In this document: one piece after another, positions 33,201-36,200 of the stretch
Layout of the letters: each line of letters opens with the position of its first letter
Position numbering within the stretch: position 1 is the stretch's first letter
DNA from: Girardia tigrina
Taxonomy: Eukaryota
Assembly (NCBI GenBank): GCA_001938485.1
Contig: MQRK01246158.1
Location: forward strand, 60,651-124,159
Length of the DNA: 63,509 nt
Direction of reading: 5' to 3'
Program-made: the position numbers

Positions 33201-36200
33201 ACTATAAATAATTCAATGATCGATACTTCATTTATATTTAAAATGAATAGAAAATATTTAATAAACATTTATATTTGATAAATGATCGTTATTTACCGTT
33301 TCTGCAATATCTTCCGTTCACAATCGACAAAGAACAATCGGAAACGTCATACGATATTAATTTATTGGAGCAATTGTGGCGAGTGCAAATTGTTTCATTG
33401 TATTCTTTTGGACAATTCGGCAACAAGGAGGATCCGTCTATGGATTGGAAGGAGACGAGGGAATGGTTGAAATAAAACTTGTCCAAACAACCCTTCAACT
33501 GATTGTTTAATGATTTATATATCATATTTGTATGCCCAATATAATGTCCAATATTTCCCATCCACAAATAAAATTTATTTGATTTTCTTTGATAATGCAT
33601 CGGAATGGGAAACCCTTTAAAATAATCTACCAAAATAATTTAATTATAATAATAATTTAATATAAGTGGTTTCTAAATTTTTGAAAACTTTGTTTCATAT
33701 TTTTTATAATTTATTATTTAATCATTACTGTTTGATTGTAAAATGAGGAGGGTGACCAGATCGGCATCAACAGCAACAAGCGTGTGCAATCGATTTAATG
33801 GAACAAGTGAAAGCACAGGCCGCAATAATGCAAATTAGAGACCTGCTGCAAACGATCACCAAAAATGTTTTGAGAGGTGCGCTGGAGCGATACATTGCAT
33901 GGAGCGATACATTGAGGCGCACATTCTCGTCACGAGGACCAACAGCACGTGTCTGATAAAGGAGAATCATTTCGCTCCATCTGAAAAGTCACAAATTGAA
34001 AGAGATGACCACTAATTATTCCAGAAACCTAATTCGAAATCAAATGAAAAGAAACAACAGAAGCTTATTTTTCAAAATATGTTGTCTATGAATAAAGACG
34101 TTTCTTCCAAAAGATTTATTGAACGTAATTTGAAGCCGAATTAATCGCCACAAGAAAAGAATAGGTTGTAAATGAGGTTCGGTTGAGAGAGCAAATCAGT
34201 AACGAATGGAGTCAAACGATAATGGAAATAGAGAGGGATAATGCTCAGAACATGAAGGATCTTCGCTCCAAAATGCGAGATGATATGCAGCGGCGATCTA
34301 AAAACAAACGTACCAAGGCATTTCGACAATTGAAAAACGACGCAAACTCCATTCAATTGAACAAGAGGAAGAACAGGACGGGCTCAAATCAAGTGACGCT
34401 GACGAGGTAGAAAACTTAGCCATCACAGTCGATCGTCAAAATCGAGAAATAAACGATGTTAAAGCAAGTCTCAAAGAGTCAAAAAGAAGCGGCCGAAAAT
34501 CGCGAAACAATTGAAATGCTTCAGTCTGAAAAGGAACGACTGACAATCCAAAAAACTTTCACAAACAATGTCTTGAAATCTGAAGATATTTGGGATTTCA
34601 GTGATTTAACTATTGAAGATTATTGGAAGATCGATAATGCATTTTCGATTATGGTAGGTGAGGAAGATTCCAATCTTCAGCCCGAAGTTGAATTTGACTG
34701 AAAATTATTTCTCGAAAGAATTTCCTGGTTGATTCCTTTCAAATCAGATATAAAGATCCATTAATTGAGTCCGCTTTCAAATATTTATACGAATACAGAA
34801 AGAGCATTCTTATCTTCCTGAACACATTCTGTCAGATACACCTAACAACTTACCTCATTTATTCACAAATATTGAACCTATAGTTACCGAATCAGAAATA
34901 ATGTCTGAATTATTTGATTCCAAAACCCAAACTCAGCAGCCATATATCGACAAAATGATAATCTTTAAAATATTACTGGAACCAATTTTGGAACTTTATT
35001 TCTTTGAAAAATTTTTGACTCAACCAGCTTGGATTCATTCTTTTTTTATGGTAAAAAAGAATGTCCATTCTCTATGGAAAGGCGATACACCAGCAGAGTC
35101 ATATTATCTACTCAGGAAAATAATTCGTGAACATTTGAGTGTTTGCTGAATCAGAAAAACATATCTTTACCCGATGGTAATACGAAGTCTCAAGAAGTTA
35201 ATCAAATGATGAATTCGCTAGCAGAAGGACAATGATGATGAATTATTAATAAATGATCCGTGATTGGCAATCTAAAAATAATTCGGACCATTTTCGAACT
35301 CGAAAATTGAGTGTGTTTTTGTTTGATATTTTTCGATTTGTTTTAATTGATCATTTTTATAATTATTGCTGGCGTGAAAATTCTTGTAAATAATTTAAGC
35401 GAGTCGCCATTAATTTTGTACATTCGAATTTAAAGATTTTATAAAATTTGTCGATTTCGAATATTTTTTTAATTCATCAAGAGTGATTTTTCGAATGTTA
35501 TCTAATTTGGAGACATGTGGTTTAGATGGTTACGTGTTTGAGTTGAGAATTTGAGATATCAGTTACAAGTCGCCATCGTCTGGAAATCCGAAACATGTTT
35601 TCGAACGAAATCTACACGATCAAATTAATATGGAACAACCTTATGTTAAAAACCGCGATGGGTTTCACGTGACGGGCTCGAATAACAACAATGGTAATGA
35701 TAGTAATAATAAAAGATAGGTATCTTATAACAACGATAATGTTGATAATAATAAAAAATGGGGCACTAATAATGCTAGCTCGCAACGAAATGATGGTAAC
35801 CTGAAATGGGGCTCACCTGATACTAGCCCTCAGAGGAATGATAATAAATGGGCGTCCGTGTTCATCTCGACAGTGTAGAGGATTGCAAGTCTGAGCTTCC
35901 CCCGCTGGTGAGAATATGAATTTAAGCCCCCTGCGTCCCGCAGATCATCCCCTAATACCAACACGCCGCAGCCACTACGCTGCGCCCGCTCTCGCATCAC
36001 CAATTACTGATAATTTTTAGATCTGTTAAATAATAAACTTCCCTTTCTTGAAATTTCTGTCACTAGGATGAATAAAATATGGAAGTGAATTACCCAGAAA
36101 CACAAAATTATTTTTCATTTTTAATTTATCAAATTTATTGGTGAGCAGTATATCGCTTATTTTGTATTTATAATTGTTTTTGTTAAGTATATGAATCAAT

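What the first reader, a model, noticed from the sequence alone, without database searches (positions are those of the whole stretch)
33297..33626. Fixed-length hypervariable loop replaces the first half of the EGF module
Between conserved Y-x-E and S-Y anchors each paralog has exactly 13 largely dissimilar residues: B YQE-TVIGKNIKKYQAV-SY (9410-9736), C YNE-TICTRHNCSNKLI-SY, D YQE-NRYKNGSWTNGSI-SY (52753-53079). The flanks are strongly conserved (FIWM[GA]NIG.Y.G-like, GCLD.FY, DCSL...N..YC). Only the last EGF-like Cys pair is kept in all copies; C has a private extra Cys pair in the loop. Inference: a CDR-like specificity loop on a constant scaffold.
Basis: partly seen in the sequence, partly recalled or inferred. 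Interest (0 to 1): 0.72.

Follow-up and report, generated by a model that had tools for sequence, protein, structure and literature searches.

The report
Variable hairpin in three LamG-like paralogs
Three neighbouring copies of a little-known cell-surface-type gene share a well-kept exon in which one short, length-conserved hairpin has diverged completely, which looks like ordinary loss of constraint in old gene copies, not a proven antibody-like specificity loop.

Summary
Exons 9410-9736 (+), 33297-33626 (-) and 52753-53079 (-) are paralogs (E 1e-24 to 2e-31). They have the same AG/GT splice sites and phase. Each has 13 residues between Y-x-E and S-Y that are 0-2 of 13 identical, against 40-50 of 95 in the rest of the exon.

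- The genes belong to a rare family: 9 hits among 1.84 billion representatives. It appears to have two LamG-like domains with a small Cys module between them, but no Pfam LamG or EGF model reaches its threshold.
- In the wider family the C-x4-C pair is not private to copy C: 5 of 11 sequences have it. Segment length is 19 in 8 of 11. 9 of 11 carry an N-glycosylation sequon there.
- The segment has the highest entropy in the exon, but narrowly: 2.31 bits against 2.20 for the next loop.
- Other exons of the same paralogs are only 13-58% identical, so the scaffold is not constant.
- Synonymous sites are saturated, so selection cannot be tested.
- Two low-confidence AlphaFold2 models both draw the segment as a beta-hairpin with the Cys pair flanking the turn.

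Best reading: an exposed hairpin whose length is constrained but whose sequence is free to drift. A specificity role is possible but untested.

The parts
33297..33626 (-). Gene C, exon c (the finding): last strands of LamG-like domain 1 plus the Cys module
   Evidence: AG/GT, 330 nt, phase 1-1; paralog E-values
33355..33393 (-). Gene C, 13-residue variable segment (predicted hairpin tip) with a C-x4-C pair and sequons
9410..9736 (+). Gene B, exon c (paralog of the finding)
9640..9678 (+). Gene B, 13-residue variable segment; no Cys, no sequon
52753..53079 (-). Gene D, exon c (paralog of the finding)
52811..52849 (-). Gene D, 13-residue variable segment; no Cys, two sequons
36595..36822 (-). 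Gene C exon a (start of domain 1)
   Evidence: AG/GT; match to P0002; open frame
36405..36536 (-). Gene C exon b
33069..33201 (-). Gene C exon d (start of domain 2)
32856..33018 (-). Gene C exon e
32686..32803 (-). Gene C exon f (end of domain 2); the 3' end beyond it is unresolved
6637..6882 (+). Gene B exon a
6917..7051 (+). Gene B exon b
11224..11374 (+). Gene B exon d. Its donor lies 6 nt further 3' than in C and D (inferred, because there is no GT at the shared site)
11424..11586 (+). Gene B exon e
11642..11759 (+). Gene B exon f; 3' end unresolved
57924..58175 (-). Gene D exon a
57756..57878 (-). Gene D exon b
52562..52700 (-). Gene D exon d
52341..52509 (-). Gene D exon e
52176..52299 (-). 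Gene D exon f; 3' end unresolved

Best explanation
The three exons belong to three dispersed tandem paralogs (B on +, C and D on -, about 20-25 kb apart). They are members of a rare, lineage-restricted family of extracellular proteins built as beta-rich domain 1, a small Cys module, then beta-rich domain 2. Two database relatives continue with a transmembrane helix and a short tail. The domains are most likely very divergent laminin-G (LamG/LNS) sandwiches, and the module sits where neurexin, Caspr and Crumbs-type proteins carry an EGF.

The 13-residue segment is the outer half of a two-stranded beta-hairpin that opens this module. The conserved Y-x-E and S-Y anchors form the base of the hairpin. 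In about half of the family a C-x4(5)-C pair flanks the turn and probably staples it. Most members carry an N-glycosylation sequon there, which suggests solvent exposure. Strand register keeps the length, while the outward-facing side chains are barely constrained. In old duplicates with saturated synonymous sites the sequence has therefore drifted to chance-level identity. B and D have lost the staple cysteines.

Shown: paralogy, splice structure, divergence figures, and the family-wide Cys, length and sequon pattern. Inferred: the LamG and EGF relationship, the hairpin, the disulfide, the exposure, and relaxed constraint as the cause.
For: - Paralogy and shared exon structure: 18 of 18 mapped exon ends are AG/GT, the frames are open, and intron positions are the same.
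- Rare family: 9 proteins with E <= 0.001 among 1,835,955,588 representatives.
- LamG lead: a Laminin_G_2 match ending exactly at the profile's C-terminus in P0002, though below threshold (E 0.034, 15.1 against 22.9 bits).
- LamG lead: the ESM Atlas neighbours of P0002 are all LamG/SHBG clusters (0.94).
- LamG-EGF lead: the neighbours of P0001 are LamG+EGF clusters (nematode 'EGF-like domain-containing', Caspr-like, Crumbs, neurexin), with top score 0.95 and 183 shared features.
- Hairpin: two independent AlphaFold2 runs place the segment in a strand-turn-strand. In P0002 the strands are E207-216/E219-228 with local block pLDDT 60-77. In P0001 they are E75-81/E86-92 with local pLDDT 54-70 and the two Cys at the strand ends flanking the turn.
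- Indels fit a hairpin: the one insertion (P0004) lies between the two Cys, that is, in the turn.
- The two loop Cys occur together in 5 of 11 sequences and are absent together in 5 of 11. This fits their pairing with each other.
- A sequon is present in the hairpin in 9 of 11.
- Chance-level identity with saturated synonymous sites.
- Whole exons elsewhere are equally diverged; for example exon f is 5/39 identical between B and C.
- No alternative copies of the exon or its loop lie in the long flanking introns.
Against: - No Pfam LamG or EGF model reaches its cut-off.
- No solved structure is found by sequence.
- Both structure models are poor overall (mean pLDDT 50.0 and 45.2), and Foldseek gives no hit at E <= 0.001. 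Fold, exposure and the disulfide are therefore not established, and model coordinates could not be inspected.
- A profile comparison of domain 1 against domain 2 finds nothing (probability 0.1).
- The segment is still the single most variable window both among the window paralogs and in the family. This is also what a specificity loop would show.
- Relaxed constraint and diversifying selection cannot be separated with saturated dS.
Confidence: 0.55

Rival explanations
1. CDR-like reading. The hairpin is the paralog-specific recognition surface of a family of LamG-like receptors. It is kept at fixed length on a conserved frame and driven apart by diversifying selection, so that each paralog binds a different partner.
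For: - It is the most divergent window of the best-conserved exon (3 of 39 pairwise identities) and the top entropy window in the family (2.31 bits).
- Length is kept in 8 of 11.
- It is probably exposed (sequons).
- The genes are tandem paralogs of a putative surface protein.
Against: - The entropy margin over another loop is small (2.31 against 2.20).
- The rest of the protein is also strongly diverged (13-58% per exon).
- N-glycan sequons in the loop of 9 of 11 members argue for shielding more than for a bare protein-binding tip (inference).
- The family is tiny (9 representatives; three copies in 63.5 kb), unlike expanded recognition repertoires.
- There is no cassette or alternative-exon arrangement.
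- Selection could not be tested.
Confidence: 0.2
2. The resemblance to LamG-EGF-LamG proteins is only apparent. The family has a different, undescribed beta-rich fold, and the Cys module is an unrelated disulfide-bonded linker, so 'first half of the EGF module' has no meaning.
For: - Pfam LamG is below cut-off in 1 of 7 family proteins and absent in 6.
- There is no EGF hit at E <= 10 in 3 exon peptides and 7 family proteins.
- The module has 2-4 Cys, not 6.
- There are no PDB sequence hits and no Foldseek hits.
- Domains 1 and 2 show no profile similarity.
Against: - All ten best named ESM Atlas neighbours of both proteins queried carry LamG families, with top scores of 0.94-0.95 and 183 shared features for P0001.
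- The sub-threshold Pfam match ends exactly at the LamG C-terminus, at the G-C motif.
- An invariant G-C followed about 25 residues later by a nearly invariant Cys resembles the C-terminal disulfide of LamG domains. That motif is recalled, not tested.
Confidence: 0.15
3. One or more of the three copies are decaying pseudogenes, and the divergent segment merely reflects neutral decay.
For: - The 5' (signal peptide) exons and the 3' ends were not resolved.
- Gene B lacks GT at the donor site shared by C and D in exon d.
- Loop identity is at chance level.
Against: - All six mapped exons of all three genes are open, and 18 of 18 have AG/GT ends with frame-preserving totals.
- 35 of 109 columns of exon c are invariant, including all four framework Cys.
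- An alternative GT lies 6 nt downstream in B, in the same phase.
Confidence: 0.05

Closest known systems
LamG-EGF-LamG cassette proteins (neurexins, Caspr/contactin-associated proteins, Crumbs)
   Same: - Two beta-rich domains with a small Cys module between them.
- A transmembrane helix and short tail in relatives P0001 and P0004.
- These families are the nearest ESM Atlas clusters.
- A sub-threshold Laminin_G_2 match at the right place.
   Different: - No Pfam LamG or EGF match above cut-off.
- The module has 2-4 Cys, not 6.
- There are only two domains and the relatives are about 300-350 residues long.
- The family is very rare.
- In neurexins the known variable sites lie on the LNS domain rim (recalled), not in the inter-domain module.
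Sex hormone-binding globulin / single LamG-pair proteins
   Same: They are the nearest ESM Atlas clusters for P0002 (0.94), and they share the two-LamG size class.
   Different: The SHBG clusters are chordate, secreted proteins with clear Pfam LamG matches. None of that is shown here.
PHRED-1, a divergent planarian neurexin-1 homolog (bioRxiv 10.1101/131789; abstract and outline read)
   Same: It is another lineage-restricted transmembrane protein with LamG and EGF domains, described as a divergent neurexin relative.
   Different: PHRED-1 is large and also has WD40 domains.
Complementarity-determining loops of immune-type receptors
   Same: A length-restricted, sequence-variable loop between conserved anchors.
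   Different: This is analogy only. No evidence was obtained here for diversifying selection, repertoire-scale copy number or a binding role.

Membership tests
Laminin G domain (Pfam PF02210/PF00054) | Profile match at or above the curated gathering score | tested here: not met
   Best result is P0002, 15.1 bits against a cut-off of 22.9 (E 0.034). There was no match in the other 6 family proteins or in the 8 single-exon peptides of the three genes that were scanned.
Laminin G domain (Pfam PF02210/PF00054) | Beta-sandwich (jelly-roll) fold | tested here: inconclusive
   The AlphaFold2 models are all-beta in the domains but have mean pLDDT 50.0 and 45.2. Foldseek against the PDB gives 0 hits at E <= 0.001. 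ESM Atlas neighbours are LamG clusters, which is a lead only.
Laminin G domain (Pfam PF02210/PF00054) | C-terminal Cys pair (G-C strand to a Cys near the domain end); motif recalled, not taken from a tool | tested here: met
   G-C is invariant in 14 of 14 rows. A Cys about 25 residues later is nearly invariant. The disulfide itself was not tested.
EGF-like domain (Pfam PF00008 and relatives) | Profile match | tested here: not met
   No EGF family at E <= 10 in the 3 exon peptides or in 7 family proteins. The only hit in the module is the LNR domain in copy C alone, at 15.2 against 21.2 bits.
EGF-like domain (Pfam PF00008 and relatives) | Six cysteines forming three disulfides | tested here: not met
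   After the domain-1 terminal Cys, the module has 4 Cys in 5 of 11 sequences, 2 in 5 of 11 and 3 in 1 of 11.
EGF-like domain (Pfam PF00008 and relatives) | Position between two LamG domains, as in neurexin/Crumbs-type cassettes | tested here: inconclusive
   The module does lie between two beta-rich domains, and the Atlas neighbours carry LamG+EGF. The LamG identity of the flanking domains is itself unproven.
Hypervariable recognition loop (CDR-like) | Excess non-synonymous change or allelic diversity localised to the loop | not testable with these tools
   pS is 0.65-0.90 between the paralogs, so dS is saturated. No alleles or close orthologs were retrievable.
Hypervariable recognition loop (CDR-like) | Variability clearly above that of other surface loops | tested here: inconclusive
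   It is the highest window, but 2.31 against 2.20 bits for the next non-overlapping window in 12 rows. Among the 3 window copies the score is 3 against 9 of 39 identities.

The most novel reading that the evidence does not exclude
The three genes are members of an undescribed, lineage-restricted family of LamG-like surface receptors. In them a reduced EGF-position module presents a length-locked, optionally disulfide-stapled beta-hairpin as the paralog-specific recognition element. This would be a small 'loop on a scaffold' recognition system, arising by tandem duplication in an AT-rich invertebrate genome.
Probability: 0.15. Interest if true: 0.55.

Novelty: new variant of a known kind. Interest (0 to 1): 0.3.

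Why it matters
If the hairpin were a true specificity determinant, the family would be a compact natural example of loop-based recognition built on a LamG-type frame, found in a lineage where surface recognition molecules are poorly known. On the evidence obtained, it is more modest: a rare, unannotated, very divergent LamG-like gene family with a reduced inter-domain Cys module. The case also shows that a chance-level loop between conserved anchors in old paralogs is not evidence of selection. The family itself falls below Pfam thresholds and has only 9 representatives in 1.84 billion proteins, so it may merit a family description.

Tried and rejected
- Pfam on single exon peptides gave nothing usable. 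The LNR hit in copy C (E 0.03, below cut-off, copy C only) was rejected as chance.
- Word-based homolog searches with the exon alignment found nothing: 'longer' and 'near'. With the family alignment only P0011 was new, and it is another model of the P0009 gene.
- Sequence searches of the PDB with two profiles and one protein found no relative. The single E 0.72 hit is chance.
- An alignment that added the other window exons as separate rows (A4) misplaced the exon-a fragments. It was dropped before structure prediction, which used A5 and A6 without them.
- Both structure models were of low confidence, and Foldseek on both was uninformative. Model coordinates are not readable, so Cys-Cys distances and solvent exposure could not be measured.
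- dN/dS by Nei-Gojobori: synonymous sites are saturated, so the ratio has no meaning.
- hhalign of domain 1 against domain 2 showed no similarity.
- A search for alternative or cassette copies of the exon inside the long introns found none.
- Rfam and tRNA scans of the window found nothing.
- A search for a transmembrane exon downstream of each window gene gave only candidates; the 3' ends stay unresolved.
- Two literature searches found no description of this family. They were keyword searches made without knowing the organism, so this is weak evidence of absence.
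Full report
**What is at the coordinates**

The window is AT-rich (GC 0.20-0.36 in 2-kb steps) and carries genes with introns. On the minus strand, 33297-33626 is an exon with an AG acceptor and a GT donor. It is 330 nt long and in phase 1-1. Its translation has two paralogs in the window, at 9410-9736 (+) and 52753-53079 (-). Both are 327 nt and have the same splice signals and phase.

tblastn of each of the three peptides against the window finds exactly these three loci, with E values between copies of 1e-24 to 2e-31. Every other hit has E >= 1.4. 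There is therefore no fourth copy in the window, and no alternative or cassette copy inside the flanking introns. The plus-strand ORFs overlapping the exon have no paralogs, and I take them to be antisense noise.

**The observation**

The three-way alignment has 35 invariant columns out of 109. Between the Y-x-E and S-Y anchors each copy has 13 residues, at 9640-9678, 33355-33393 and 52811-52849.

- Identity in this segment is 1/13, 2/13 and 0/13, against 43/95, 40/95 and 50/95 in the rest of the exon.
- That is the chance level. Composition predicts 6.5% amino-acid identity, and nucleotide identity is 12-15 of 39 against 27-29% expected by chance.
- It is the most divergent 13-column window of the exon: 3 of 39 pairwise identities, against 9 for the next non-overlapping window.

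Two cautions apply. A 13-column run without an invariant column arises in 3024 of 20000 column shuffles. The Fisher p values (0.013, 0.075, 0.00017) are post hoc.

**The genes**

Six-frame self-comparison, comparison with database relatives and reading of the junctions give six collinear exons, a to f, in each of three genes:
- B: 6637-11759 (+)
- C: 36822-32686 (-)
- D: 58175-52176 (-)

All 18 exons have AG/GT ends, all are open, and the summed lengths preserve the frame. Most introns are 34-95 nt. The intron before exon c is long in all three genes: 2358, 2778 and 4676 nt. In gene B the donor of exon d lacks GT at the shared position, but a GT 6 nt downstream keeps the phase.

The 5' signal-peptide exons and the 3' ends were not resolved; one search gives only candidate hydrophobic exons.

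**The family**

A profile of the three exon peptides was scored against 1,835,955,588 representative proteins. It found 9 proteins with E <= 0.001, of which 8 had E <= 1e-10. They are unnamed records in clusters of one or two members. Six come from MetaClust/UniParc and three from short ENA contigs of 846-1479 nt. The two other word-based searches found nothing.

The alignment shows the following order: domain 1, the Cys module, a second beta-rich domain and, in P0001 and P0004, a hydrophobic helix and a short tail. AlphaFold2 draws that helix at residues 272-295 of P0001.

**Is it LamG and EGF?**

Pfam gives only a sub-threshold Laminin_G_2 match in 1 of 7 family proteins. This is P0002, at E 0.034 and 15.1 bits against a cut-off of 22.9, and it ends exactly at the profile's C-terminus. 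No EGF match appears at E <= 10. Sequence searches of the PDB find nothing.

The ESM Atlas places P0002 next to LamG/SHBG clusters (0.94). It places P0001 next to LamG+EGF clusters: a nematode 'EGF-like domain-containing' cluster, Caspr-like, Crumbs and neurexin, with a top score of 0.95 and 183 shared features. By the tool's own calibration this is a fair lead, not proof.

- Two AlphaFold2 runs with 14-row alignments gave mean pLDDT of 50.0 and 45.2.
- Foldseek on both models gave no hit at E <= 0.001.
- hhalign sees no similarity between domains 1 and 2.

I therefore describe the family as probably a very divergent LamG-module-LamG protein. I do not file it as a member of either Pfam family.

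**The segment in the wider family**

For the counts I dropped three rows: P0011 (same gene as P0009), P0010 (close to P0006) and P0008 (ends inside the segment). This leaves 11 complete non-redundant sequences.

| Feature | Result in the 11 sequences |
|---|---|
| Distance from the conserved E to the next invariant Cys | 19 in 8, 20 in 1 (P0004), 17 in 2 (P0005, P0006) |
| S-Y anchor | present in 6 |
| C-x4-C pair (C-x5-C in P0004) | present in 5 (C, P0001, P0004, P0006, P0009), absent in 5 (B, D, P0002, P0003, P0007); P0005 has one Cys |
| N-x-S/T sequon in the hairpin | 9 have at least one (none in B and P0007) |
| The two downstream Cys | invariant in all 11 |

The extra Cys pair is thus not private to copy C. 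Over 12 rows (P0008 kept), mean column entropy of the segment is 2.31 bits. That is the highest 13-column window, but the next non-overlapping window (positions 7-19) has 2.20, and the exon mean is 1.84.

**Structure of the segment**

Both models draw it as strand-turn-strand.
- P0002: strands E207-216 and E219-228, local 10-residue block pLDDT 60-77, the best part of that model.
- P0001: strands E75-81 and E86-92, local pLDDT 54-70, with the two Cys at the strand ends on either side of the turn.

The conserved anchors form the base of the hairpin. The one insertion, in P0004, lies between the two Cys. This explains why length is kept while sequence is not. It remains an inference from low-confidence models, and the coordinates could not be inspected.

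**Constant scaffold?**

Exon-by-exon identity among B, C and D is as follows:

| Exon | Identity |
|---|---|
| a | 24-39% |
| b | 28-58% |
| c | 39-46% |
| d | 28-40% |
| e | 25-37% |
| f | 13-44% (5/39 for B against C) |

Exon c is simply the best-kept exon of old, strongly diverged paralogs. Synonymous differences are saturated (pS 0.65-0.90, dS infinite in two of three pairs). dN/dS therefore says nothing, and relaxed constraint cannot be told from diversifying selection.

**Verdict**

The best reading (0.55) is an exposed, usually glycosylated beta-hairpin. It is stapled by a disulfide in about half of the family, sits in a reduced inter-domain Cys module of divergent LamG-like tandem paralogs, and has drifted to chance identity under weak constraint. 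The CDR-like reading (0.2) is not excluded but has no positive support beyond the divergence itself. A non-LamG, non-EGF novel fold (0.15) and pseudogenisation (0.05) are less likely.

**Literature**

Two full-text searches turned up no description of such a family. The nearest item is PHRED-1, a divergent planarian neurexin-1 homolog (10.1101/131789; abstract and outline read). The other listed papers were seen as search listings only. Supplements were closed and not consulted.

- The four N runs (603 bases in all) were left as they are.
- I saw nothing that I take for human sequence.
- Among 41 window ORF segments scanned with Pfam, the only mobile-element signals were mariner-type transposase fragments. 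I found no stretch with viral or retroviral protein matches, so I could not locate the virus-like stretch the operators mention unless it is those fragments. They were described only.
The bacterial/archaeal genome collection was not relevant. Further copies of this gene family in eukaryotic genomes therefore stayed unchecked.

Noticed in passing
window 17580-17900 (+), with a second copy around 47790-48512: Mariner-type transposase fragment (Pfam Transposase_1, E 2.3e-11, 43.8 bits against cut-off 24). It is repeated at about 85-97% translated identity in a second place. Only fragments were seen, and their state was not analysed.
   Followed up: partly
window 28805-29167 (+): The C-terminal part of a DDE transposase (DDE_3, E 4.9e-06, 26.9 bits, just under the cut-off of 28.6) lies directly beside the largest N run of the window. 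The gap was left unfilled.
   Followed up: no
window 10343-10519 (+): Weak DDE_3-like ORF (E 0.057) inside the 1487-nt intron between exons c and d of gene B. A transposon remnant here may explain why this intron is long, when the same intron is 95 and 52 nt in C and D.
   Followed up: no
window 59096-59701 (-): An ORF with a USP8 dimerisation domain (E 2.6e-12, above cut-off) and a weak rhodanese match. It is probably the first coding exon of a USP8-like deubiquitinase gene, just upstream of gene D.
   Followed up: no
window 33627-36404 (intron b-c of gene C), ORFs at 33798-35149 (+): The long intron before the finding exon holds several plus-strand ORFs rich in charged residues, in a locally GC-richer stretch (0.356). 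None has a Pfam match. This may be a nested gene or a repeat on the opposite strand. The intron at this position is long in all three paralogs: 2358, 2778 and 4676 nt.
   Followed up: partly
window 5213-5461 / 16053-16241; 6068-6253 / 15641-15784; 39263-39484 / 50533-50721; 30568-30849 / 51459-51632: Further dispersed repeat pairs, seen as translated similarity in several frames (44-82% identity). They were not classified.
   Followed up: no
P0001 and P0004 C-termini (database relatives, not in the window): After the predicted transmembrane helix, both relatives end in a short tail with a tyrosine-containing motif near the C-terminus. Its meaning, sorting or signalling, is unknown, and the equivalent exons of the window genes were not found.
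   Followed up: no
window 11794-12030 (+), 29908-30012 (-): Candidate hydrophobic (transmembrane or GPI-signal-like) coding stretches lie downstream of genes B and C. They were not linked to the genes by any splice evidence.
   Followed up: partly
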